Notes under the pieces: generated by a model
Databases searched by the model: none
What the model saw: the letters and a program-made list of their open reading frames with translations, nothing else
Told to the model about the DNA's origin: nothing
Program-made: the position numbers and the translations under genes
Origin: Escherichia phage LH01
Direction: 5' to 3' (one strand)
Length of the DNA: 64,000 nt
Sequence record: PP434429
Part shown: positions 49,803-59,572 of the stretch, in pieces
How positions within the stretch are numbered: the first letter of the stretch is position 1
Layout: the number at the start of each line of letters is the position of its first letter

Positions 49803-50107
49803 TATAATGTTCTCTCAAATTTGTGGAAGCATTTACGGCATTTCAATTTCAAGTTATCACTGGTCCAGTTAACCAGTTGGACTTGGATAGTTCCACATTC
49901 CGGACATGGATGTTTTGCTGCCGATTTGGCAGCATTTTCACGTCGTTCAACCATTTTCATTATTTCGTTCCATGCTGGAGGAACGAACTCTTCTTCACCA
50001 TGAATTTTATCTCGCTGAACAAATTCAATCTTTGAACTATCATCAATAAACTTAACCAAGCCATGATTAGTGCTCATATCAATATCCTCTAGAAGACGTA
50101 GGTTCAT
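49802..50107 (-). CDS. zinc-ribbon protein
   Basis: 101-aa ORF; CPECG...CRKC pairs near the C-terminus. Confidence 0.45.
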   Translation of the reverse strand: MNLRLLEDIDMSTNHGLVKFIDDSSKIEFVQRDKIHGEEEFVPPAWNEIMKMVERRENAAKSAAKHPCPECGTIQVQLVNWTSDNLKLKCRKCFHKFERTL

Positions 50108-51057
50108 TATAACACCTCAATGGCATTTCGTAAACCGTCCGCTTTCGCATTCAGAGCTTTTAACGATTTAGTTTGTTCTGCAATCTGGGCTTCGACTTCT
50201 TTCAGACGAGATTTGAGGTACTCACGTTCTTCAGCCATGATATCAACCTTTTCTGCTTTAGGTTCTTTAATAAGCTTAGGTTTATACGTATTAGGGTTCT
50301 TCAGCTTAATTCGGGTACGAGAACTGTATAACATTGAACCGTTATCTTCGGATTCGTCGAACGTTTCAACAACATCCATAGTCTCTAACAATGTAATAAG
50401 TTTATAAGACAATGAACGAACGGTTTTGTTGTGCTTATTAATTTCTTCGGCTTTCATAGTACCGAGATTACGTGAGTAGTAATAAGGAACCTGGATATCA
50501 ATTGATAATGATGCGTTACCATTACCTGTTGGTTTGAATACTGCAGTAACCCAATCTTTAACATGAACTTTATTTGTACGACCATCACCGCCAGTGAATA
50601 ATTTACGAGAATGTTTAAAAAGCATATTCACTTGGTTATTGAATTCACAAGCAAATTTATCAGCAAATTTAGTTTCAGGAATGGTAGATAACCAATCAGC
50701 CAAATGAGCCTTTTTAACATCATTAACAATAGTGAATTCAACCAAATCGGTTTTAGATGTCACAGATTTAATAAAGCTCGGCTTCATAAAGTTTTTAATA
50801 TTATCGCGAGCTACAGTAGAAGATAATAAACGAGAACGTTTGAACCATTGAAGCAGTGTCCCTAATGAATGAGAATACGCATTCTGAGTATCTTTACAGA
50901 TATGATTTTCTTGGCCTGTGTATGTACCAAAATCGCGAAGAATACCACTTACTACATCTCGGTGTGGAACATCAAATCCTAGTGCACCAGAAGCACGTTG
51001 GGCATGAACGTTAGCGATAAGACCTGCAAAGTATTCAATGTAATGTGAACGTGTCAT
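50107..51057 (-). CDS. hypothetical protein with C-terminal coiled coil
   Basis: 316-aa ORF; heptad-rich C-terminus; preceded by promoter/stem-loop cassette copy 3. Confidence 0.55.
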   Translation of the reverse strand: MTRSHYIEYFAGLIANVHAQRASGALGFDVPHRDVVSGILRDFGTYTGQENHICKDTQNAYSHSLGTLLQWFKRSRLLSSTVARDNIKNFMKPSFIKSVTSKTDLVEFTIVNDVKKAHLADWLSTIPETKFADKFACEFNNQVNMLFKHSRKLFTGGDGRTNKVHVKDWVTAVFKPTGNGNASLSIDIQVPYYYSRNLGTMKAEEINKHNKTVRSLSYKLITLLETMDVVETFDESEDNGSMLYSSRTRIKLKNPNTYKPKLIKEPKAEKVDIMAEEREYLKSRLKEVEAQIAEQTKSLKALNAKADGLRNAIEVL

Positions 51058-51085
51058 AATATTTTCCTCTCGTTAAGATAGATTC

Positions 51086-51115
51086 ATTATACTCCAACCA
51101 TCCTTGGTTGTAAAC
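51086..51115 (-). promoter_or_regulatory. promoter/stem-loop cassette, copy 3
   Basis: identical 25-nt core tatactccaaccatccttggttgta; -35 TTTACA, -10 TATAAT. Confidence 0.5.
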
Positions 51116-51119
51116 TATT

Positions 51120-52079
51120 TTATGATTTTAATGCATTCATTGCGTTAAAAAGTTTAGAATACTGCAACTGGAGATTCGTTACAACACTTTGAGCATCACG
51201 AAGCTTAGCTTGTGCTTTGTCAAGTTCAACAGACAGTTGGTCCATAGTGGCCTTGATTTGATTGTAATGGTAATCTTCGGCAGGAAGAAGGTCATTAGAA
51301 ACATTTAGTTTTACTGCCGACAGTTTGCACACATTTGGCAAACCTTTAAACATTGATTTACCCGAAGTAGAATATGCACCTAGAACTTCAGCATTGCCAA
51401 TTGGGGTTGCAGTAATTGACGCTTCGAACGTTGCATTTTCCTTTTTAAGATTTTGATAGTATTCAGAGTCTTTGTGCCACCATGGCGCAGGAACCTTTTT
51501 ACCAATAGATACACGAGCCTGGATAGCGATATGGCCCTTATTCTTGATAGGGTCGATAATATTAAGCTCACGAGAATAAATTGCTTTAATCTGGTGGATA
51601 TTATCACCTAAAACTTCCAACGCTTGGTGGAATACACGAGCAACGTTATCATTCTTAGGTTTATACGTAAGAGTGAACTCGTTCTCACTGATAACCATGA
51701 TTTCTAACTTATCGTAAGTATATTTCAAATGTTTCATGTTAATTGCTTGAGGACGAATACGAGAAGCAATGGCCATCAGATTGTTAAGGTTATTCCGGAA
51801 CTGCTTAGCGAAATATTGACCTTCACCGCCAATACAAAAATTACGAAGTTTCTGTTTGGCCAATAAACGGCTGAACTCACCATTTTTAATGAACTCTTTA
51901 ACGGGTGTGTTAGTAACGCATTCAAATTGGGTAAACATACGAGAAGTAATCCCATAATACGAACAGACTTCCTCAATCTCTTCAGGAGTCTTTACAGGCA
52001 TACGGATAGGATTAGGTCCTGGAGTATATGCGTTCGAGGTAAATTCTTTGATAAGTTCTCTACGTGTAATAAAAGCCAT
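51120..52079 (-). CDS. hypothetical protein with C-terminal coiled coil
   Basis: 319-aa ORF; preceded by cassette copy 4. Confidence 0.55.
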   Translation of the reverse strand: MAFITRRELIKEFTSNAYTPGPNPIRMPVKTPEEIEEVCSYYGITSRMFTQFECVTNTPVKEFIKNGEFSRLLAKQKLRNFCIGGEGQYFAKQFRNNLNNLMAIASRIRPQAINMKHLKYTYDKLEIMVISENEFTLTYKPKNDNVARVFHQALEVLGDNIHQIKAIYSRELNIIDPIKNKGHIAIQARVSIGKKVPAPWWHKDSEYYQNLKKENATFEASITATPIGNAEVLGAYSTSGKSMFKGLPNVCKLSAVKLNVSNDLLPAEDYHYNQIKATMDQLSVELDKAQAKLRDAQSVVTNLQLQYSKLFNAMNALKS

Positions 52080-52105
52080 TTTATATTCCTCATGTTGAAA
52101 AATTT

Positions 52106-52134
52106 ATTATACTCCAACCATCCTTGGTTGTACA
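52106..52134 (-). promoter_or_regulatory. promoter/stem-loop cassette, copy 4
   Basis: identical 25-nt core; -35 TGTACA, -10 TATAAT. Confidence 0.5.
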
Positions 52135-53130
52135 TCATTCCTTAAGAAGTTTTACTACTTGAATAAGATTAGCTCGTTCTGTTTTATTTTTACCGTTTAA
52201 GCCTGCTAATCGTGAGATTTCATCGTCAGTCTGTTGAATAGTTACATTAAGTTCGTTAATCAAAGCTTCAAAGTATTTAATTTGCTCAGCATGTTTTGAT
52301 TCAAATTTCTGAACCGGAATAACGTCTTGGTTCAGTTCATCAATAAGGTCTTTAAGAGCATCTTCTTGGTTGATATCATATTCAACTTCTTTTATTTCTT
52401 CAACGAGCTCGTCTTTATATCTAACGTCTTTTAGTCCTGGTGCTGGTCCTGAAATCTCTTCTTTAAGAGTACAAACATACCCAATACGGTATCCAATGCC
52501 GTCTCGCTTGATATCAACTTCGTCGATAAATCCGCAATGTTTAAGACCAGAGCCAATTAGGTCAAAATATCCTTGACGTCGTCCTTCAAACGTTACACGA
52601 ACTACTAAGAAAGTTTTGCCTGCAACCTTTTGAAGCTCACATTTATAAAAGTCTGTTGAACCTGAATAACGTGGATGAGTTTTAAAGTTCATCTGACGAT
52701 CTAGGCCCATTTGTAAACGTGCTGTTACGGCCATAAAACGTGTTTGGTTCTCGTTAAGATGAGCAACAATCCATTTCAAAGGCATTTTACACTGTTCACG
52801 ACCGAACAAATCAGTACGTCCTAGATTACGCAGGATGTTGTTAGAGTTAATCATCGACAGAACGTTAAGTTTATTCAGCGCGCTGAAGATTCCGTCAGCC
52901 ATTGATTTTCCATAACCTTTACACGCTTTAATAAGTGCTCGCGGCAGATTAGTATAGATTTCAGACGGCATATGAAAATCAAATTTACTAGTCAGTAATT
53001 GATGAACTTGGATAGCAATTTGCTCATAATTAAGTGCTCTGCGATCGTTATGGTCTTTAAACCACACTTTAATCTGTGAAGCACATAAACCGTTAATTTC
53101 ATGTTTTACCGCATCAGATGTAATGCTCAT
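52135..53130 (-). CDS. hypothetical protein with C-terminal coiled coil
   Basis: 331-aa ORF from the track. Confidence 0.55.
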   Translation of the reverse strand: MSITSDAVKHEINGLCASQIKVWFKDHNDRRALNYEQIAIQVHQLLTSKFDFHMPSEIYTNLPRALIKACKGYGKSMADGIFSALNKLNVLSMINSNNILRNLGRTDLFGREQCKMPLKWIVAHLNENQTRFMAVTARLQMGLDRQMNFKTHPRYSGSTDFYKCELQKVAGKTFLVVRVTFEGRRQGYFDLIGSGLKHCGFIDEVDIKRDGIGYRIGYVCTLKEEISGPAPGLKDVRYKDELVEEIKEVEYDINQEDALKDLIDELNQDVIPVQKFESKHAEQIKYFEALINELNVTIQQTDDEISRLAGLNGKNKTERANLIQVVKLLKE

Positions 53131-53192
53131 AACTATTTCCTCAGATTGAATTGGAACTCAAAACCATTATAACCCGTCCTTGGGTAAAGCGT

Positions 53193-53720
53193 TTATGCGT
53201 GAACCGTCTTTAAACGTTCTTCAAATTTCCGAAGAGTACTAATACGTTCTGCTTTCTGTTTTGTATAGTTTGCAATACGTTCTGAAGTGAGAGCGTATCG
53301 TTCGTTTACTGTTTCTTTCATGAAGTCAGGGATTTCACGAGAAGCTTTAATTTCATCAAACTTATCGAGTACTGCCTGGTCTTCAGCGATTAAATTTTCG
53401 TACATCTCGATATCTTTCTTAATGAAGTCGATATCTTCCTGGGTTACTTTGGATAAACGAGATGCTTTATCCTTTTTGTACTGCTCGTTAGTTTCACGAG
53501 ACCAGAATAATGTACGTTTTTTGTTAGTGTTTTTGTAGACTTCCACAATTCCAACTGAATCGATGATAACAATCCAATTCCAGCGAGATTTGAAAATCTG
53601 ACCTCCATCTACGGTAATCTCGTTACCATAAGCAACGTCATTAAAGAACTTGCTCTGTGCTTCAGATTTAAATTTACCGTCGTTATAATTTACCAGGTTG
53701 AAAATATCTTTAGCGTTCAT
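53193..53720 (-). CDS. hypothetical protein
   Basis: 175-aa ORF with ATG start; helical Lys/Glu-rich C-terminus. Confidence 0.5.
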   Translation of the reverse strand: MNAKDIFNLVNYNDGKFKSEAQSKFFNDVAYGNEITVDGGQIFKSRWNWIVIIDSVGIVEVYKNTNKKRTLFWSRETNEQYKKDKASRLSKVTQEDIDFIKKDIEMYENLIAEDQAVLDKFDEIKASREIPDFMKETVNERYALTSERIANYTKQKAERISTLRKFEERLKTVHA

Positions 53721-53747
53721 GTTTTACCTCCAGTAGTTGATAGGTCT

Positions 53748-53776
53748 ATAATAACATAACCATAGACCTTGTAAAC
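53748..53776 (-). promoter_or_regulatory. early-type promoter (-35 GTTTAC, -10 TATTAT)
   Basis: motif about 28 nt upstream of ATG 53720. Confidence 0.45.
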
Positions 53777-53778
53777 AA

Positions 53779-54066
53779 CTAAAAGAAACTTTTTTCGGTA
53801 TTTTTTCCACTGAACCAAACAGACTTCGGGATTTTTTGTAATTTTTCAGATTTAAGTTTCTCTTCCTGTTCTTTCTTATATACACTCTTGTCGTACTGGA
53901 GCATCTCTATGGCATTCTTTTGCAAATGATCTAAGGTAATTAAGGCTTTAGTTTTTCCTTTCAAGGAAGAGTCCTGGCGAACTTCCTCGCTATATTGCAT
54001 CGTAGAACTAACCATACGATGTGCATAGAGTTCGACTGCGGCTTTAATTTTTTGCATAAAATCCAT
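53779..54066 (-). CDS. hypothetical small protein
   Basis: 95-aa ORF from the track. Confidence 0.4.
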   Translation of the reverse strand: MDFMQKIKAAVELYAHRMVSSTMQYSEEVRQDSSLKGKTKALITLDHLQKNAIEMLQYDKSVYKKEQEEKLKSEKLQKIPKSVWFSGKNTEKSFF

Positions 54067-54204
54067 AACATATCCTCTTTGATTTGTACATCATTATTTT
54101 TAAATATTTCTATGCCCTCAGTAGGTTCCTGGTGTCCTTCTTTGAGGTAAGCCATATGATTATTCATCTTTATGGCTTTTGTTACCTCAGAACTTCCTAT
54201 AAGC

Positions 54205-55206
54205 TTATTTCAGTAAAGTAACTTCCGAGATTTCTTCCCAACCATCTTTATCAGTTGAAATAAAATCTGCTACATAAAGAGCCGTACGTAATGATACATT
54301 GCGAAGACGAGATACGTTAGCCTTCATCCAGGACAATGCTTTATACGTTTCTGCATCCGTCAAGCCACGTTTCTGCATCATGTCAGTAGATAATATTACA
54401 TCTTCAACTCGAACCATAATCTCTTCATTAGAGTGTACTCCAAGGTCGAGATACACTGAACGAGATACTAAAGCTTGAAGGTGTGGAGCAAGTTTCGAAC
54501 CCCGTTCTAACTCTTTATCGATATCAACGTTTGTAATGAAAACGATAGTACCTTCAAACTCAAATTCTTTATCAATACCCTTATCCTCGAGATAAGATGA
54601 CGCAGTGCTCCAACAAACTTTGCGTTTATCTCCGGTATCTAATGCTGCTTTAAGAAGGTTCAGGATGTCCATATCTGAGAATACGTCAACGTCATCGATT
54701 AAGAGAACGCTGTCTGCATCACGGTTGAGCCAAAGTTGTTCGTAAAGGCCAATACCAGAGATTTTACCATTAATGCTTTTGTATTTGATGAAACCATTAT
54801 CATTAGCATTACTAAGTGCTTTATCCAGAGAATACGTCTTACCAATACCAGCTGCACCTGAAATAATGAGTGAACGAATTTTGCCATCGATAATGCCATT
54901 CGTCATCATGTTCATTACTTTAAAGCGTTTGTTGATACGAGTTTTCATATCTTCAGTGCTTTCAACAACTGCAACTGGTGACGTCTCAACTCCTTCCATT
55001 ACGATGTCTGATTTGAAGACCCATACTCCACGTTCAGAACCATCAATCATAACGAAAATTTTACCATCACCTAAGTGGGAACATTCAGGATTAAGCTTTG
55101 CCGGGAACCATGTCTTTGTGGCAACATAAGAACCAGAGATTTCGTTATTACGATAGATACCTTTTTTGATTTGAACGTTGAACATTTTATTCTCCAATTT
55201 ACTCAT
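54205..55206 (-). CDS. P-loop NTPase (AAA-like ATPase)
   Basis: 333-aa ORF; Walker A SGAAGIGKTYS and Walker B VLLIDDVD after an N-terminal domain of about 110 aa. Confidence 0.6.
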   Translation of the reverse strand: MSKLENKMFNVQIKKGIYRNNEISGSYVATKTWFPAKLNPECSHLGDGKIFVMIDGSERGVWVFKSDIVMEGVETSPVAVVESTEDMKTRINKRFKVMNMMTNGIIDGKIRSLIISGAAGIGKTYSLDKALSNANDNGFIKYKSINGKISGIGLYEQLWLNRDADSVLLIDDVDVFSDMDILNLLKAALDTGDKRKVCWSTASSYLEDKGIDKEFEFEGTIVFITNVDIDKELERGSKLAPHLQALVSRSVYLDLGVHSNEEIMVRVEDVILSTDMMQKRGLTDAETYKALSWMKANVSRLRNVSLRTALYVADFISTDKDGWEEISEVTLLK

Positions 55207-55223
55207 TTCGTTTCGATAGGTCT

Positions 55224-55251
55224 ATAGTATCATATCCTAAAAGCATGTACA
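55224..55251 (-). promoter_or_regulatory. early-type promoter (-35 TGTACA, -10 TACTAT)
   Basis: motif upstream of ATG 55206. Confidence 0.4.
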
Positions 55252-55282
55252 CTACTTTTTAAAAATATTTTGACCCCCTAAA

Positions 55283-55298
55283 GGGACCCGAAGGTCCC
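55283..55298 (-). terminator. GGGACC(UUCG)GGUCCC hairpin
   Basis: perfect 6-bp stem with UUCG loop just downstream of the 55304..55564 stop. Confidence 0.4.
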
Positions 55299-55303
55299 CA
55301 CAT

Positions 55304-55564
55304 TTACTTATCGCACTTAGCAACATAATTAGGCATATCACAGAATACGGAGCGTGTAACTACTCGACCCTTTGACCATGCTTCAGTTGCTTGTCCGGCA
55401 GTGCTATTAATATAGCTCGATTTGATATTCTCAATACCCTGAGAATGTGATGCATTTACCGAACCGTTGGAAGGCCCAGAAGACTGGTTACCACCAGCTC
55501 CTGTGGTAGCACCAACAGAGAATGCCATCATTACTGCGAATAAACCAATTGCTAATTTTTTCAT
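55304..55564 (-). CDS. small secreted protein
   Basis: 86-aa ORF; signal peptide MKKLAIGLFAVMMAFSVGA; two C-terminal Cys; late promoter upstream. Confidence 0.45.
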   Translation of the reverse strand: MKKLAIGLFAVMMAFSVGATTGAGGNQSSGPSNGSVNASHSQGIENIKSSYINSTAGQATEAWSKGRVVTRSVFCDMPNYVAKCDK

Positions 55565-55595
55565 ATTTACCTCAAGTTAAGGGTTATTTATCTAC

Positions 55596-56585
55596 TTATT
55601 TATAGTAAGAATTATGATTTTCGAGATAGACTTGCTCAAGGAAATCATCCCAGAAACTCATATCTACTTTTTGTTGCATACCATTCTTGGCAGCTTGTTC
55701 TGACGCATGTTCAACTTGGTCAACGATATCTTCTAGGAATTCTTGTACAGTTTTAAACGTATGTTTACCAAGCTTAACATCGAGAATAAATGGAGCATCC
55801 TGAAGTGGGTAAACCAGGTCGCCGGTTTTGTAAATTTCCAATAATTGAAGTCCACCACGACATGCATGACTCAATGCTTTCCAGTCAATACCTTCGTTAG
55901 CTTCTGCTTTACGAGCACGTTCACCATAGTTCTCTTCCAGTTTAACCAGGATAGCATTGAACTCTTTATTGGTTAACGTGTCTTGGAATTTACGGTCTAA
56001 CAGACTATAGAATGTTTGCTTACCTGTTTTCTCGTTTTCGGTTTCAACCCACGAAGCAAATTCACCTACAGGCAGAACATTCTTCATATGTGATAAACGA
56101 ATTACTGCACCATTATCAAAGTATTGTCCCCATTCATTAGAACGTTTAAGGGCTTGACGAAGAACAGCCAGTCGAGAACCCTTGACACCGTATTTAGAAG
56201 CTTGCTTACGGACATACCCTAAATAAGATTTCATGTTAGTGGTATAGAAACGAGACCTGTTATCTTGAATATACTTCCATACATCAGGCAAATCAGATTT
56301 AACTATTAGACTTGGTGGAGTGTGAAGCATATCTAATGCGACAGTTTCACCATCTGCAGCTAGTTTAAAGAAATATTTGAGACTATATAACTCATGGTCC
56401 ACATCGTCTTTTGTGTTCTTAGAAGATGTGTTATTCGTGTTCTTGCTCATATGTTCTTTAACGTTACCGGTCAAAATATCACGAGCATGAGGGACATAAA
56501 TTTCTTTAAAATCGACGTCAGATTCAGGAGTAGACGTTCCATAAAGGTGGCTACCAAAGTAGCTTTTCATAATTGTTTTCATCAT
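55596..56585 (-). CDS. Pol-beta-superfamily nucleotidyltransferase
   Basis: 329-aa ORF; N-terminal FGSHLYGTSTPESDVDF (GS ... D-x-D nucleotidyltransferase signature) followed by a helical domain. Confidence 0.6.
   Translation of the reverse strand: MMKTIMKSYFGSHLYGTSTPESDVDFKEIYVPHARDILTGNVKEHMSKNTNNTSSKNTKDDVDHELYSLKYFFKLAADGETVALDMLHTPPSLIVKSDLPDVWKYIQDNRSRFYTTNMKSYLGYVRKQASKYGVKGSRLAVLRQALKRSNEWGQYFDNGAVIRLSHMKNVLPVGEFASWVETENEKTGKQTFYSLLDRKFQDTLTNKEFNAILVKLEENYGERARKAEANEGIDWKALSHACRGGLQLLEIYKTGDLVYPLQDAPFILDVKLGKHTFKTVQEFLEDIVDQVEHASEQAAKNGMQQKVDMSFWDDFLEQVYLENHNSYYK
55597..55604 (-). promoter_or_regulatory. late promoter TATAAATA
   Basis: exact TATAAATA about 33 nt upstream of ATG 55564, within the 3' end of the nucleotidyltransferase gene. 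Confidence 0.4.
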
Positions 56586-57055
56586 TTAGCCTTATATTCA
56601 AGAGTAGGACAGACTTTTTCTTTACGAGCTTTAAGGTATTCACCTATTAATGATTTCTTACGTTCAATAGGCTCAAGTCCATTTTTAATTCGTTCTTGGT
56701 TTTGCGCAATGAGCTCAATTTCTTTATAATATTTTCTGTCGTTATATTTGTCTAACAACCAAGACGGACCAATTACTAACCCGGTAGCAATAAAAGCCAT
56801 GACTGCTACAATTAAAATGCCTACACCAATTGAGGCTGGAACTAATGTCCATAGACTGCTAAAAACAAAGAATTTAGTTAAAATTTCGTGGCCAAAGATT
56901 GTGACTGCTGCTAAAATCGCAAATCCAATAATTGAAACAGCCAATACCGGGATTAACGTTTTCCAAAAATAAGCACACAACGTTTTCGGACGATTCCATG
57001 TACTATTGAACGCGGCATAAATTTTAAAGTGCCAAGAGTTTTCATTGATAATCAT
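56582..57055 (-). CDS. membrane protein
   Basis: 157-aa ORF with several hydrophobic helices. Confidence 0.5.
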   Translation of the reverse strand: MIINENSWHFKIYAAFNSTWNRPKTLCAYFWKTLIPVLAVSIIGFAILAAVTIFGHEILTKFFVFSSLWTLVPASIGVGILIVAVMAFIATGLVIGPSWLLDKYNDRKYYKEIELIAQNQERIKNGLEPIERKKSLIGEYLKARKEKVCPTLEYKAK

Positions 57056-57064
57056 AATAATTCC

Positions 57065-57595
57065 TTATTTCAAAGTTGGGATAATAGAATCGAGATAAGC
57101 TTTAAGAGCAACTGCTTCATCTTTGTCTAATGTAACGATATGTTGACGAAGGTCATCAATTTGACGAATAACTACAACATCGCCATCTTCATAAGAAGGA
57201 TTAACGCCTAGGACTGTTGTATAGTCAGGGCGGTCCTGATTTGTAATAAAAGCATTACGGCATTTAGCCCATTGAAGTTTGGCCTTTTTGGCTATTTCAG
57301 ATTCCATTAATTCTTTCACCTTAGTGACGAATGTTTTCCAATTATTGATAGAAAGGCATTCATCTTCTGTTTCGATATTAACCCCACTATAAAGACCGTG
57401 ATAAAAACGAACTTGAAGGTCTTCATCGATGTTAATTACAGATGCATGGCCTGGCGGATTGAGTTTCAAAATCTTGTCCAGTTCCATAGGAAGAATAGTA
57501 ACAGAATCATCTTCTTGTGTCAGAACGTAAGCATAACCACGTTTTTCGATACATAAATCACCAAACAACTCGGTTGTTTCAATTACAATTTTCAT
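57065..57595 (-). CDS. hypothetical protein
   Basis: start at first ATG (MKIVIETTE); the track ORF begins at an upstream TTG. Confidence 0.5.
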   Translation of the reverse strand: MKIVIETTELFGDLCIEKRGYAYVLTQEDDSVTILPMELDKILKLNPPGHASVINIDEDLQVRFYHGLYSGVNIETEDECLSINNWKTFVTKVKELMESEIAKKAKLQWAKCRNAFITNQDRPDYTTVLGVNPSYEDGDVVVIRQIDDLRQHIVTLDKDEAVALKAYLDSIIPTLK

Positions 57596-57596
57596 A

Positions 57597-57776
57597 TTAT
57601 TCACCAATTAAAGTTTCAACAAAATTCACCAAAGCATTCTGGCACGCATCAACCTGATTTTCATAAAAGTCTCCGTTATCATTTACCGCGTGATAAGCTA
57701 CATCATTCAAATCTGAATCGGCTTCACGTAGGTCACGGATAAGGTCCATCAATTTATTAGCTTGTTCACGGGTCAT
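57597..57776 (-). CDS. hypothetical small protein (MTR paralog, copy 1)
   Basis: about 59 aa, below the track threshold (MTREQANKLMDLIRDL...); ATG overlaps the stop of an upstream mini-ORF. Confidence 0.3.
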   Translation of the reverse strand: MTREQANKLMDLIRDLREADSDLNDVAYHAVNDNGDFYENQVDACQNALVNFVETLIGE

Positions 57777-57911
57777 TTTACCATACTCGTTTCAATAAGA
57801 TTCACTATGCCGTTTACCATGTTATAAGTAAACATCGGATAATTGTATTGTACTACAACATAAGCGATAAGCAAAAGTTTCATTTTGTTCTCCGTTTGTT
57901 TTGGTAGGACT

Positions 57912-57941
57912 ACTATAACATAGTCCTACCAAGATGTAAAC
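57912..57941 (-). promoter_or_regulatory. early-type promoter (-35 GTTTAC, -10 TATAGT)
   Basis: motif upstream of the small ORFs at 57600-57885. Confidence 0.35.
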
Positions 57942-58147
57942 TACCGATTGTGTTTTAAATGTTGATAAAGTTCTTCAACTTGTTTTGGGTCTAAAACAAT
58001 TAGGTCATTTTCTTGACGAAGATAAATCCATCCCTTATCCCCAGGACCATTTTTACAAAACATTGCCACCATATCATCATCTTCAGCGCTTTCAGGTAAA
58101 AGTTCAACCACACCGTCTTCAGATTTTCCGGTATAATCGTAAAGCAT
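57941..58147 (-). CDS. hypothetical small protein
   Basis: track ORF trimmed to internal ATG (MLYDYTGK). Confidence 0.35.
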   Translation of the reverse strand: MLYDYTGKSEDGVVELLPESAEDDDMVAMFCKNGPGDKGWIYLRQENDLIVLDPKQVEELYQHLKHNR

Positions 58148-58963: not shown

Positions 58964-58990
58964 ATATACCTCTTGGTTAGATATTAGTAT

Positions 58991-59572
58991 TTATAACAAC
59001 CCTGTCAAATCATTCCAATGCTTCCGGCATAATGACACATATCTATCGGTATCACCAATTTCAATTTGACTGCCATCTGTAATTGGAAGTCCGTCTTCCG
59101 TGACTCTAGCTACCATTGTGGCCTTTTTACCGCAATGACAGACACCTTTAAGTTCAACAAGCTTATCGGCAATAGCCATTAATGCTTGAGAACCTTCAAA
59201 TAGATTACCTTTAAAATCTGTTCGTAGTCCATATGCCATTACCGGCACATTGTATACGTCAACAATACGACTAAGTTGATACACCTTTTCAGTAGTTAAG
59301 AACTGAGCTTCGTCAACAAATACACAGTGAATATCCTTTTGTGCTGCAGCCCATTTATAGAATTCAAAGATATCCATGTCTTTTGTAATTATATTGGCAT
59401 CCTGACGAATACCAATACGAGAGACTATTTCACCTTTTGAATCACGAGTATCAATAGCCGGTTTAAGAACTAATACACCCATGCCACGTTCTTTATAGTT
59501 ATGTGCGGCAGTAAGTAATGAAGCAGACTTACCAGCGTTCATAGCGGCATATGTAAAAATTAAACTAGCCAT
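58991..59572 (-). CDS. tk: thymidine kinase
   Basis: 193-aa ORF; P-loop AMNAGKS, VDEAQF, C-terminal zinc site CHCGKKA. Confidence 0.9.
   Translation of the reverse strand: MASLIFTYAAMNAGKSASLLTAAHNYKERGMGVLVLKPAIDTRDSKGEIVSRIGIRQDANIITKDMDIFEFYKWAAAQKDIHCVFVDEAQFLTTEKVYQLSRIVDVYNVPVMAYGLRTDFKGNLFEGSQALMAIADKLVELKGVCHCGKKATMVARVTEDGLPITDGSQIEIGDTDRYVSLCRKHWNDLTGLL

What the first reader, a model, noticed from the sequence alone, without database searches (positions are those of the whole stretch)
54205..56585. P-loop ATPase adjacent to a Pol-beta-type nucleotidyltransferase
A 333-aa Walker A/B ATPase and a 329-aa protein with an N-terminal GS-x10-SDVD nucleotidyltransferase signature plus helical C-terminal domain sit side by side, separated by a late-expressed secreted peptide. 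Nucleotidyltransferases of this fold include CCA-adding, polyA/U-adding, antibiotic-adenylylating and cyclic-nucleotide-synthesising enzymes. A phage copy could repair or tag RNA, or interfere with nucleotide-signalling defences.
Basis: inference. Interest (0 to 1): 0.55.

Follow-up and report, generated by a model that had tools for sequence, protein, structure and literature searches.

The report
T4 NrdC.11 RNA-repair nucleotidyltransferase, unrelated neighbouring ATPase
These are the already catalogued T4-phage genes nrdC.10 (an AAA+ ATPase) and nrdC.11 (an RlaP-family enzyme that probably adds a nucleotide or two to broken RNA ends during tRNA repair). They sit side by side only through local gene order in close T4 relatives, not because they work together.

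Summary
The three ORFs are real and lie at the stated coordinates on the minus strand of a Mosigvirus (RB69/ATK47-like T4 relative). The 329-aa protein is the ortholog of T4 NrdC.11. It passes Pfam's threshold for RlaP (PF10127), and G11-S12, D23, D25 and D63 align with the invariant catalytic residues of canonical RlaP. Its fold is closest to HalB and KNTase-type transferases, not to cGAS/CD-NTase, CCA-adding or poly(A) polymerases.

A December 2025 preprint showed that Pseudomonas RlaP adds 1-2 NMP to RNA 3'-OH ends, and it names T4 NrdC.11 as a family member. Relatives of this clade sit next to RtcB, Pnkp, Hen1, Ro60 or canonical RlaP in bacteria. In some distant phages they form NTase-RNA ligase-Pnkp clusters.

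The 333-aa (more likely 326-aa) protein is the NrdC.10 AAA+ ATPase. The two genes are neighbours only in close T-even relatives. In marine T4-like phages the ATPase sits beside UvsW, UvsY and UvsX instead. There is no evidence for an ATPase-NTase module.

The domain assignments date from 2006. The finding is ordinary and largely already known. The enzyme's role in phage infection is still untested.

The parts
55596..56585 (-). RlaP-family (PF10127) Pol-beta nucleotidyltransferase, 329 aa; ortholog of T4 NrdC.11
   Evidence: ORF. Pfam RlaP 49.4 bits against a gathering cut-off of 23, covering residues 4-138. phrog_388 'nucleotidyltransferase', E 3.3e-126. 78-79% identical to T4/T2-type nrdC.11. 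AF2 model pLDDT 89.2.
56511..56555 (-). Codons for G11-S12 ... D23-V24-D25, the GS and DxD catalytic motif of the NTase
   Evidence: Invariant in 51 and 53 diverse homologs. Aligned to the GS / D39-x-D41 motif of canonical RlaP by hhalign.
56391..56405 (-). Codons for D61-V-D63-H-E65 on beta-strand 62-68; D63 is the predicted third catalytic carboxylate
   Evidence: D61 is invariant and D63 at least 90% conserved. D63 aligns with invariant D72 of canonical RlaP. Strand assignment comes from the AF2 model.
54205..55206 (-). AAA+ ATPase, ortholog of T4 NrdC.10; 333 aa from the first ATG, more likely 326 aa from the ATG at 55185
   Evidence: ORF. phrog_1250, E 1.8e-161, aligned from residue 8. 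Weak AAA_22/AAA_16/STAND Pfam hits. AF2 model pLDDT 89.5 shows an N-terminal beta domain plus an AAA+ core. Foldseek gives generic AAA+ matches: NSF, NtrC1, RFC, RuvB, Hda, ORC.
54835..54858 (-). Walker A codons (GAAGIGKT, residues 117-124 in 333-aa numbering)
   Evidence: Invariant G/K/T in 41 homologs.
54691..54708 (-). Walker B codons (VLLIDD, residues 167-172)
   Evidence: DD is invariant in 41 homologs.
55304..55564 (-). 86-aa ORF with a signal-peptide-like N-terminus (phrog_2243). An accessory insert between the two genes; absent from T4.
   Evidence: Detected in only 2 of 80 viral loci that carry the NTase. T4 has only 114 bp between nrdC.10 and nrdC.11.
55597..55604 (-). TATAAATA, a T4 late-promoter-type box 32 nt upstream of the 86-aa ORF's ATG; it overlaps the last codons and stop codon of the NTase gene
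55272..55299 (-). Two overlapping G+C-rich hairpins (GGGACC-UUCG-GGUCCC and GGTCCC-TTT-AGGGGGTC) followed by an A/T-rich run, between the small ORF and the ATPase gene. Terminator-like or RNA-processing site.
   Evidence: Sequence. Terminator-like call at 55288-55272.
56582..57055 (-). 157-aa membrane protein (phrog_944) immediately upstream. Its TGA stop overlaps the NTase ATG (ATGA), suggesting translational coupling.
   Evidence: A homolog lies upstream of the NTase in 35 of 80 viral loci, almost all of them close relatives.

Best explanation
The region holds two independent early-region genes of a T4-like phage, plus a small inserted ORF.

Gene 55596-56585(-) encodes the NrdC.11 ortholog, a divergent member of the RlaP family of Pol-beta nucleotidyltransferases. 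It most likely uses D23, D25 and D63 to bind two divalent metals (Mn2+ is preferred in the characterised enzymes). With them it would transfer one or two NMPs from NTPs, without a template, onto the 3'-OH of a broken RNA.

During infection this would complement the phage's Pnkp (pseT) and RNA ligase 1 (rnlA), which are encoded elsewhere in the genome. Host anticodon nucleases cut tRNA, and RloC-type enzymes also excise a nucleotide. Pnkp heals the ends, the NTase restores the missing nucleotide on the 5' half, and Rnl1 seals the break.

Gene 54205-55206(-) encodes the NrdC.10 AAA+ ATPase. It is not a partner of the NTase. Its wider family travels with DNA recombination and replication genes (UvsW, UvsY, UvsX), so it more likely acts on DNA or a DNA-bound protein complex.

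Shown here: ORFs, family membership, an intact active site, fold class, gene neighbourhoods, and the lack of linkage between the two genes.
Shown by others: the RNA 3'-end NMP-adding activity, for two Pseudomonas RlaPs only.
Inferred: that the phage enzyme has the same activity, and that it acts in tRNA repair.
For: Identity of the genes:
- The window is 99% identical to Mosigvirus ATK47. The genes are the nrdC.10 and nrdC.11 orthologs.

Family and active site:
- Pfam RlaP scores 49.4 bits against a cut-off of 23.
- G11, S12, D23 and D25 are invariant, and D61, D63 and D85 are invariant or at least 90% conserved, across homologs of 33-74% identity.
- hhalign places D23/D25/D63/D85 on the invariant D39/D41/D72/E94 of canonical RlaP.

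Fold:
- The AF2 model (pLDDT 89) shows an N-terminal NTase domain and a helical C-terminal domain.

Published biochemistry:
- PfRlaP and PaRlaP add 1-2 NMP to RNA 3'-OH, not to DNA or protein. They prefer a cleaved-tRNA mimic and Mn2+, and they restore aminoacylation of a tRNA that lacks one anticodon-loop nucleotide. The preprint lists T4 NrdC.11 as a family member (PMC12776372).
- The same role was predicted earlier for phage RlaPs (PMC7824862).

Neighbourhoods of the same clade:
- Among 80 bacterial or archaeal loci with full-length NrdC.11-like genes, 15 have RtcB, Pnkp, Hen1 or Ro60 within 4 kb, and 30 do when canonical RlaP is counted.
- Viral locus L077 has contiguous NTase-RNA ligase-Pnkp genes, and genome-collection locus L159 has NTase-Pnkp-Rnl. 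Loci L055, L061, L063, L064 and L073 have Rnl or Pnkp within 10 kb.
- HD or DSPc phosphoesterases lie directly beside the NTase gene in several loci.
- The near-identical phage ATK47 encodes rnlA and pseT.

Decoupling from the ATPase:
- The ATPase lies within 10 kb of the NTase in 25/32 loci where the NTase is at least 60% identical, 1/20 at 45-60% and 0/28 below 45%.
- In the reciprocal test, the NTase lies within 8 kb of the ATPase in 9/9 loci with close ATPases and 0/60 with distant ones.
- No ATPase homolog occurs in the 80 genomic loci.
- In Vibrio phage D490 the two genes are 66 kb apart.
- Distant ATPase loci carry a UvsW-family helicase just downstream in 23/60, and UvsY-like and UvsX-like genes nearby.
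Against: - No activity has been measured for any NrdC.11-clade enzyme.
- The Pfam match and the profile-profile match to canonical RlaP cover only the N-terminal ~85-135 residues (hhalign probability 61%). The C-terminal half, which would bind the substrate, may differ.
- The preprint places T4 NrdC.11 in a different sequence cluster (5) from the characterised enzymes (1a).
- In 21 bacterial loci the NrdC.11-like gene sits next to a canonical RlaP. This implies the two are not redundant and may do different chemistry.
- In this phage the NTase gene is not next to rnlA or pseT; they are about 80 kb away.
- T4 tolerates deletion of nrdC.11-mobD.3 in the laboratory.
- The PfRlaP crystal structure is not in the PDB copy searched, so no direct superposition was possible.
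- The DNA-related role proposed for the ATPase rests only on neighbourhood and generic AAA+ similarity.
Confidence: 0.55

Rival explanations
1. The ATPase and the NTase form a two-component module. For example, the AAA+ protein might load or remodel the NTase on its substrate, or the pair might act together as a counter-defence system.
For: The genes are adjacent and on the same strand in this window and in most close T-even relatives: 25 of 32 loci with NTase at least 60% identical, and 9 of 9 with ATPase at least 60% identical.
Against: - The spacing varies from 115 to 2284 bp, with different inserted genes.
- 7 of 32 close relatives keep the NTase without the ATPase.
- Beyond the close relatives linkage almost vanishes: the ATPase is near the NTase in 1/48 distant NTase loci, and the NTase is near the ATPase in 0/60 distant ATPase loci. 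No ATPase homolog occurs in the 80 genomic loci.
- The genes are 66 kb apart in Vibrio phage D490.
- Record counts differ by host: Klebsiella phages 286 against 149, Vibrio phages 59 against 121.
- Here a hairpin and an inserted ORF with a late-promoter-type box separate the two genes.
- Neither protein has a meaningful PADLOC match: none for the NTase, and only a negligible 11-bit SspF hit for the ATPase.
Confidence: 0.06
2. The NTase makes or intercepts nucleotide or oligonucleotide immune signals. It might act like a CD-NTase, or like a HalB-type oligonucleotide synthase that supplies decoy oligonucleotides.
Against: - Identity to HalB is only 16%, over 166 of 329 residues.
- PADLOC gives no hit.
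- Characterised RlaPs stop after 1-2 additions and need an RNA 3'-OH primer.
- The clade's bacterial neighbours are RNA repair enzymes, not signalling effectors.
Confidence: 0.05
3. The NTase nucleotidylates a protein or a small molecule, like MntA-type antitoxins that AMPylate HEPN toxins or like KNTase/Lnu antibiotic transferases.
Against: - These matches are weak (Foldseek E at least 2e-3, TM about 0.26) and reflect the shared minimal NTase plus helical-bundle architecture.
- The MntA score is 13 bits against a cut-off of 60.
- E. coli proteins were not substrates of Pseudomonas RlaP.
- No HEPN toxin partner lies nearby.
Confidence: 0.08
4. The NTase acts on RNA 3' ends but not in anticodon-loop repair. 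It might rebuild damaged tRNA 3'-CCA ends, or tail host or phage transcripts to alter their stability.
For: Pseudomonas RlaPs labelled rRNA, full-length tRNA and single-stranded RNAs, and showed little NTP specificity. The phage gene is not adjacent to rnlA or pseT.
Against: - There is no similarity to CCA-adding or poly(A) polymerase families: no PF01743 hit, and Cid1, CutA and Pla1 have probability at most 0.08.
- The clade co-localises specifically with ligases and end-healing enzymes, including contiguous NTase-Rnl-Pnkp clusters.
- RlaP preferred the 3' end at the break of a cleaved-tRNA mimic over the tRNA 3' terminus.
Confidence: 0.15

Closest known systems
T4 NrdC.11 (NP_049709), with its orthologs annotated 'nucleotidyltransferase' in RB69, ATK47 and other Straboviridae
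   Same: Orthologous: same position between nrdC.10 and the mobD/tk region, and 78-79% identity to the T4/T2-type protein. The ATK47 copy is 99% identical at DNA level. COG3541 NTase similarity was reported in 2006. It was named as an RlaP member in 2025.
   Different: Here an 86-aa signal-peptide ORF lies between nrdC.11 and nrdC.10, and a membrane-protein gene, rather than the mobD homing endonuclease gene, lies upstream.
RlaP (PF10127) nucleotidyltransferases of bacterial RNA repair operons, e.g. Pseudomonas fluorescens and P. aeruginosa RlaP (PMC12776372)
   Same: Passes the Pfam gathering threshold. Shares the GS / DxD / third-Asp set, and the layout of an N-terminal NTase domain plus a C-terminal helical domain. 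Relatives of the same clade sit in RtcB, Pnkp/Hen1 and Ro60 loci.
   Different: Only the N-terminal third to two-fifths aligns significantly. The protein is about 70 residues longer, with an Asn/Ser/Lys-rich loop (residues 48-60) and a beta-hairpin region (residues 177-201) in the C-terminal half. It falls in a different SSN cluster. It often occurs in tandem with a canonical RlaP, so it is probably not functionally identical. Its activity is untested.
Hailong HalB nucleotidyltransferase (PDB 9dbh)
   Different: 16% identity. HalB is 217 aa, makes oligodeoxyadenylate and works with the HalA channel. No HalA-like partner is identifiable here, and the clade's genomic context is RNA repair.
T4 NrdC.10 (NP_049708), AAA+ ATPase of unknown function
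   Same: Orthologous to the ATPase here, at about 78% identity. An AAA match was noted in 2006.
   Different: Nothing substantive. New here: distant members lack the N-terminal beta domain in jumbo phages, and in marine T4-like phages they sit beside UvsW, UvsY and UvsX.
Clamp-loader/initiator-type AAA+ proteins (RFC, Hda/DnaA, Cdc6/ORC, RuvB)
   Same: AAA+ core with a lid domain; Walker A; a 'DD' Walker B; and an S-R-S motif at the position of the clamp-loader SRC / DnaA box VII arginine (my reading of alignment A1). Weak hits to Cdc6, to PHROG 'clamp loader' families, and to RFC, Hda, ORC and RuvB by Foldseek.
   Different: All matches are generic (Foldseek E about 1e-5 to 1e-4, TM about 0.4; sequence E above 0.08). 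NSF, dynein, NtrC1 and NorQ score equally well, so no clade can be assigned.

Membership tests
[quoted passage not shown] | Score above Pfam's curated gathering threshold | tested here: met
   49.4 bits against 23, E 6.4e-13. The match covers only residues 4-138 and profile positions 20-145 of 249. All listed database homologs carry a precomputed PF10127 assignment.
[quoted passage not shown] | Pol-beta catalytic set: G-S helix cap, DxD on strand 2, and a third conserved Asp | tested here: met
   G11, S12, D23 and D25 are invariant and D63 is at least 90% conserved. hhalign puts them on the GS / D39 / D41 / D72 of canonical RlaP.
[quoted passage not shown] | Full-length homology, including the C-terminal helical domain and the terminal helix that packs back on the NTase domain | tested here: inconclusive
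   The AF2 model has a helical C-terminal domain ending in a long helix at residues 309-328. hhalign aligns only 85 N-terminal columns (probability 61%). The PfRlaP structure is not in the PDB copy. afdb50 was unavailable.
[quoted passage not shown] | Gene neighbourhood with RNA ligases and end-healing enzymes | tested here: inconclusive
   Not met in this window: no RnlA or PseT homolog is present, and in ATK47 they lie about 80 kb away. Met for relatives of the same clade: RtcB, Pnkp, Hen1 or Ro60 in 15 of 80 genomic loci, and NTase-Rnl-Pnkp clusters in L077 and L159.
[quoted passage not shown] | Adds 1-2 NMP to RNA 3'-OH (Mn2+-dependent); not active on DNA or protein | not testable with these tools
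   Shown only for P. fluorescens and P. aeruginosa RlaP.
CD-NTase / cGAS-OAS signalling synthases | cGAS/OAS-type fold and sequence-family match | tested here: not met
CCA-adding enzymes and poly(A)/poly(U) polymerases | PolyA_pol (PF01743) or PAP/TUTase family match and fold | tested here: not met
   No such Pfam hit. Cid1, CutA and Pla1 appear only at Foldseek probability at most 0.08 and TM about 0.13.
MNT / MntA antitoxin (minimal NTase of HEPN-MNT modules) | NCBIfam MntA model above cut-off, ~100-150 aa size, adjacent HEPN toxin gene | tested here: not met
   13.1 bits against a cut-off of 60, with only the 18-residue GS-DxD stretch aligned. The protein is 329 aa, and no HEPN gene is adjacent.
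Hailong HalB | HalB-like NTase encoded with a HalA ion-channel partner | tested here: not met
AAA+ ATPases (for the 54205-55206 gene) | Walker A, Walker B, alpha/beta core plus helical lid | tested here: met
   GAAGIGKT and VLLIDD motifs. The motifs are invariant in 41 homologs. AF2 model pLDDT 89.5, with 139 PDB AAA+ matches at E <= 1e-3. All Pfam AAA models score below their gathering thresholds.
Two-gene ATPase-NTase system | Conserved co-occurrence and adjacency across divergent lineages | tested here: not met
   Adjacency in 25/32 close loci, 1/20 intermediate and 0/28 distant. Reciprocal test: 9/9 close and 0/60 distant. 0/80 genomic loci.

The most novel reading that the evidence does not exclude
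The NrdC.11 clade may not be a plain RlaP repair enzyme. It could be a HalB-like, template-independent oligonucleotide synthase that phages use as a counter-defence. For example, it might replenish short (deoxy)adenylate 'guard' oligonucleotides so that Hailong-type channels stay closed while phage exonucleases are active.

The evidence does not exclude this:
- HalB is the closest solved structure.
- The C-terminal, substrate-binding half does not align with canonical RlaP.
- Bacteria often keep an NrdC.11-like gene and a canonical RlaP side by side, which implies different chemistry.
- In this phage the gene is not next to any RNA ligase.
Probability: 0.04. Interest if true: 0.75.

Novelty: already known. 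Interest (0 to 1): 0.27.

Why it matters
T4's Pnkp-Rnl1 pathway is the textbook case of a virus repairing host-inflicted tRNA damage. RloC-type anticodon nucleases were proposed to defeat it by excising a nucleotide. If NrdC.11-type enzymes restore that nucleotide, T-even phages would hold a third repair component and a further move in this arms race.

That idea is already in the literature (Burroughs & Aravind as cited; Carruthers et al. 2025). It is directly testable with a knockout and a simple labelling assay.

This analysis adds several points:
- The neighbouring ATPase should not be treated as part of the system.
- The phage clade is a distinct RlaP subgroup that often occurs in tandem with canonical RlaP in bacteria.
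- Some distant phages carry compact NTase-ligase-Pnkp cassettes that would be good experimental models.
- The NrdC.10 ATPase family tracks with UvsW, UvsY and UvsX in marine T4-like phages, which gives a first lead to its function.

Tried and rejected
- **PDB sequence searches.** Single-sequence and profile searches for both proteins gave nothing significant for the NTase and only weak Cdc6 hits for the ATPase. The PfRlaP crystal structure appears not to have been released.
- **PDB fold searches.** The NTase gave weak KNTase, HalB and LinB matches, with none to CD-NTase, CCA-adding or PAP enzymes. The ATPase gave only generic AAA+ matches. afdb50 was not available, so no structural comparison with bacterial RlaP models was possible.
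- **NCBIfam and PADLOC.** No meaningful hits.
- **First homolog search for the NTase.** It returned only proteins at least 98% identical. Diversity came from the representative-library search and a profile search.
- **Conserved same-strand neighbours of the NTase in distant phages.** No recurrent partner emerged. Only scattered RNA ligase, Pnkp, HD, DSPc and dNMP-kinase genes were found.
- **Separate promoter for the ATPase.** Considered, but the consensus scan called no sigma-70-type promoter between 55207 and 55303. By eye there is only a weak TGTACA-16-TACTAT match, so I do not claim one.
- **Paralogy of the three coiled-coil-tailed ~320-aa proteins downstream (50107-53130).** BLASTP found no similarity between them.


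Full report
**What is there.** The window is a T4-like coliphage of the genus Mosigvirus. Bases 53000-58000 are 99.1% identical to phage ATK47 over their whole length, and 722 phage records match. On the minus strand lie three ORFs: 54205..55206 (333 aa), 55304..55564 (86 aa) and 55596..56585 (329 aa). Each matches a phage protein family end to end: phrog_1250, phrog_2243 and phrog_388, at E 1e-37 to 1e-161.

Comparison with the ATK47 and T4 annotations shows the two large genes are the orthologs of T4 nrdC.10 and nrdC.11. They lie in the nrdC-mobD-tk early region; thymidine kinase is at 58991..59572.
- The NTase motif is GS-x9-SDVD, not x10.
- The ATPase most likely starts at the second ATG (55185). 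A GGAG precedes it, and orthologs are 326 aa.

**The nucleotidyltransferase.** Pfam places the protein in RlaP (PF10127, 'RNA repair pathway DNA polymerase beta family') at 49.4 bits, against a gathering score of 23. Only residues 4-138 align.

The family is large. An exhaustive search found 3257 cluster representatives at E <= 1e-3 and 752 at E <= 1e-30. In alignments of 51 and 53 homologs (33-74% identical, apart from one identical copy):
- G11, S12, D23, D25, N57, R223, K236 and R243 are invariant.
- D61, D63, D85 and H240 are invariant or at least 90% conserved.

An AlphaFold2 model (mean pLDDT 89.2) shows an N-terminal alpha/beta NTase domain. D23 and D25 lie on strand 24-31, D61 and D63 on strand 62-68, and D85 in the following helix. 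A helical C-terminal domain follows.

A profile-profile alignment against 11 canonical, full-length RlaPs (found here next to bacterial homologs) places D23, D25, D63 and D85 on their invariant D39, D41, D72 and E94. The enzyme looks catalytically competent.

**Which kind of Pol-beta enzyme.** The PDB holds no sequence relative.
- Foldseek gives only weak matches. Kanamycin NTase/ANT(4'), the 3c18 NTase-like protein, Hailong HalB and LinB score E 2e-3 to 5e-2. Cid1, CutA and Pla1 poly(U)/poly(A) polymerases have probability at most 0.08.
- No cGAS/CD-NTase/OAS or CCA-adding enzyme appears among the listed matches. PADLOC and NCBIfam give nothing above noise.

So the protein belongs to the 'minimal NTase plus helical domain' group and, by sequence, to RlaP. 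It does not belong to the signalling, CCA-adding or PAP groups.

**What RlaP enzymes do.** RlaP was named for its association with RNA ligase genes. It was predicted to restore nucleotides lost from broken RNA ends before ligation, for example after RloC excises the wobble base. Its distribution in jumbo phages mirrors that of RNA ligases (PMC7824862).

A December 2025 preprint (PMC12776372) characterised the P. fluorescens and P. aeruginosa enzymes:
- They label RNA, but not DNA or protein, from E. coli.
- They add one or two NMPs (or dNMPs) to RNA 3'-OH ends and show little base specificity.
- They prefer the broken end of a cleaved-tRNA mimic, and they prefer Mn2+.
- They raise the aminoacylation of a repaired tRNA-Asp that had lost one anticodon-loop nucleotide.

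The preprint explicitly lists T4 NrdC.11 as a family member, in a different sequence cluster (5) from the enzymes studied (1a). NrdC.11's NTase similarity (COG3541) and NrdC.10's AAA similarity were already reported in 2006 (PMC1524935).

**Independent context test.** I searched 185,579 bacterial and archaeal genomes with the NrdC.11-clade profile. This gave 80 loci with full-length relatives at 33-52% identity. Within 4 kb of the NTase gene were:
- a canonical full-length RlaP directly downstream, in 21 loci (PF10127, 272 bits)
- RtcB, in 7 loci
- Hen1, in 7 loci
- Pnkp, in 6 loci
- an HD_4 phosphohydrolase, in 5 loci
- Ro60/TROVE, in 4 loci

In all, 15 of 80 loci have a ligase, healing or Ro60 marker. 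The count is 30 of 80 when canonical RlaP is included.

Among 80 viral contigs with the NTase:
- L077 carries NTase, RNA ligase (PF09414) and a PseT-like Pnkp as three contiguous genes.
- L055 and L064 have RnlA-like genes, L061 and L063 have PseT-like genes, and L073 has an RNA ligase, all within 10 kb.
- HD or dual-specificity phosphatase genes lie directly beside the NTase gene in several distant phages.

The small contig L159 from the genome collection has NTase, Pnkp and Rnl in a row.

The window itself has no Rnl or Pnkp. The near-identical phage ATK47 does encode rnlA and pseT, about 80 kb away. Rnl1 joins 3'-OH to 5'-P ends, which suits the 3'-OH product that RlaP leaves.

Together these results support the RNA-repair reading for this clade. 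The tandem arrangement with canonical RlaP also shows that the two subgroups are probably not equivalent.

**The ATPase and the supposed pairing.** The 326/333-aa protein has an invariant Walker A (GAAGIGKT), a 'DD' Walker B and an S-R-S motif. The AF2 model (pLDDT 89.5) shows a five-stranded N-terminal beta domain, a disordered linker and an AAA+ core with a lid. Foldseek finds 139 AAA+ structures at E <= 1e-3, but with no preference among NSF, dynein, NtrC1, NorQ, RFC, RuvB, Hda and ORC. Sequence profiles give only weak Cdc6 and 'clamp loader' hits.

Linkage to the NTase was tested in both directions:
- Among the 80 NTase-bearing viral loci, an ATPase homolog lies within 10 kb in 25 of 32 where the NTase is at least 60% identical, with gaps from 115 to 2284 bp. 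The figures are 1 of 20 at 45-60% and 0 of 28 below 45%.
- Among 69 ATPase-bearing viral loci, the NTase lies within 8 kb in 9 of 9 close ones and 0 of 60 distant ones.
- None of the 80 genomic loci has the ATPase.
- In Vibrio phage D490 the two genes are 66 kb apart. Record counts differ by host group: Klebsiella phages 286 against 149, Vibrio phages 59 against 121.

The adjacency is therefore local synteny of the T-even nrdC-mobD region, not a conserved module. In the distant ATPase loci, a UvsW-family helicase follows the ATPase in 23 of 60. UvsY-like, UvsX-like and NrdA/NrdB-type (ribonucleotide reductase-like, by my reading of the sequences) genes lie nearby. This points, weakly, to a DNA recombination or replication role.

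**The small ORF and signals between the genes.** The 86-aa ORF has a typical signal-peptide N-terminus and a conserved family (phrog_2243). T4 has only 114 bp at this position, and the ORF was detected in only 2 of the 80 NTase loci. A TATAAATA box overlaps the NTase stop codon, 32 nt upstream of the ORF's ATG, with a GAGG Shine-Dalgarno sequence in between. The window holds only four such boxes, all on the minus strand, which is fewer than the 7.4 expected by chance. Two overlapping G+C-rich hairpins follow the ORF at 55272-55299. The NTase ATG overlaps the stop codon of an upstream 157-aa membrane-protein gene (ATGA).

**Verdict.** The finding is real but ordinary. It consists of two previously catalogued T4 accessory genes. 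The NTase is already assigned in the literature to a family whose chemistry was recently worked out, and the ATPase is an uncharacterised AAA+ protein.

The most likely mechanism for the NTase is template-independent addition of one or two nucleotides to RNA 3'-OH ends, in support of Pnkp/Rnl1 tRNA repair. I hold this at moderate confidence (about 0.55), for three reasons:
- No NrdC.11-clade enzyme has been assayed.
- The C-terminal half differs from the characterised enzymes.
- T4 tolerates loss of the gene in the laboratory.

The proposed functional link to the ATPase is not supported.

Noticed in passing
Loci L161, L163, L169, L176, L178, L181, L187, L188, L191, L194, L199-L201, L209, L211, L213, L220, L224, L226, L228, L231 (NTase match plus the next gene downstream): In 21 of 80 bacterial loci an NrdC.11-like NTase is immediately followed (median gap 51 bp, same strand) by a canonical full-length RlaP (PF10127, 272 bits). 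This tandem of two RlaP subtypes suggests a division of labour or a heteromeric enzyme. I found no description of it in the papers read.
   Followed up: partly
L077:10001-13161 (IMG/VR contig IMGVR_UViG_3300033153_001952); L159:80-3677: Compact NTase - RNA ligase - Pnkp cassettes: three contiguous genes in a distant viral contig (L077), and an NTase - Pnkp - Rnl cluster in a 4-kb contig binned with a Bathyarchaeota MAG (L159). They would be good models for testing phage RlaP function.
   Followed up: partly
Loci L098-L142 (distant NrdC.10-like ATPase loci), e.g. L114:8402-9859: In marine or environmental T4-like contigs the NrdC.10-family ATPase is followed by a UvsW-family helicase in 23 of 60 loci. 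UvsY-like and UvsX-like genes lie nearby. This is a first functional lead for this uncharacterised ATPase.
   Followed up: partly
window 56582-57055 (-): A 157-aa protein with about 3 predicted transmembrane helices (phrog_944). Its stop codon overlaps the NTase start codon (ATGA). A homolog lies upstream of the NTase in 35 of 80 viral loci (31 of 32 close relatives), but no T4 ORF at that position is annotated as a membrane protein; mobD sits there. An NTase plus membrane-protein pair superficially recalls Hailong HalB/HalA; the membrane protein was not compared with HalA.
   Followed up: partly
window 50107-53130 (-): Three consecutive ORFs of 316, 319 and 331 aa (NrdC.3/.4/.5-type; phrog_1435, DUF7235/phrog_2351, phrog_2257). 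Each ends in a coiled-coil-like heptad segment, yet BLASTP finds no similarity between them. Function unknown.
   Followed up: partly
window 57065-57607 (-): A MobD.1/y05I-like protein with strong matches to the Pfam T4_y05I_N and T4_y05I_C 'putative transcription factor' domains (E 1e-40 and 1e-19). It lies two genes upstream of the NTase.
   Followed up: no
window 55272-55299 (-): Two mutually exclusive G+C-rich hairpins, one with a UUCG tetraloop, directly after the 86-aa ORF and followed by an A/T-rich tract. This could be a terminator or an RNA-processing/stability element separating the NTase and ATPase transcription units.
   Followed up: no
window 15230, 47835, 55597, 58988 (all - strand): TATAAATA occurs only four times in 64 kb (7.4 expected), always on the minus strand. 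The copy at 58988-58995 overlaps the end of tk, just upstream of the rI.1/rI lysis-inhibition genes. This is consistent with late promoters embedded in an early region.
   Followed up: no
L003/L004:7013-7480; L005:6939-7445; L069:10909-11424; L076:10923-11435; L082:9447-9995; L165, L183, L196, L206, L233: Small phosphoesterase genes (HD, HD_4 or dual-specificity phosphatase) sit directly beside the NTase gene in several unrelated phages and bacteria, downstream in most and upstream in L082. They may be end-healing partners that generate the 3'-OH the NTase needs.
   Followed up: partly
phage records hit (H97-H99: Escherichia phage CRJP21, Erwinia phage pEa_SNUABM_12, Pseudomonas phage MIJ3): Jumbo phages carry NrdC.10-like ATPases that match only residues ~80-333. 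They lack the N-terminal beta domain, so that domain is a T4-like-specific addition.
   Followed up: no
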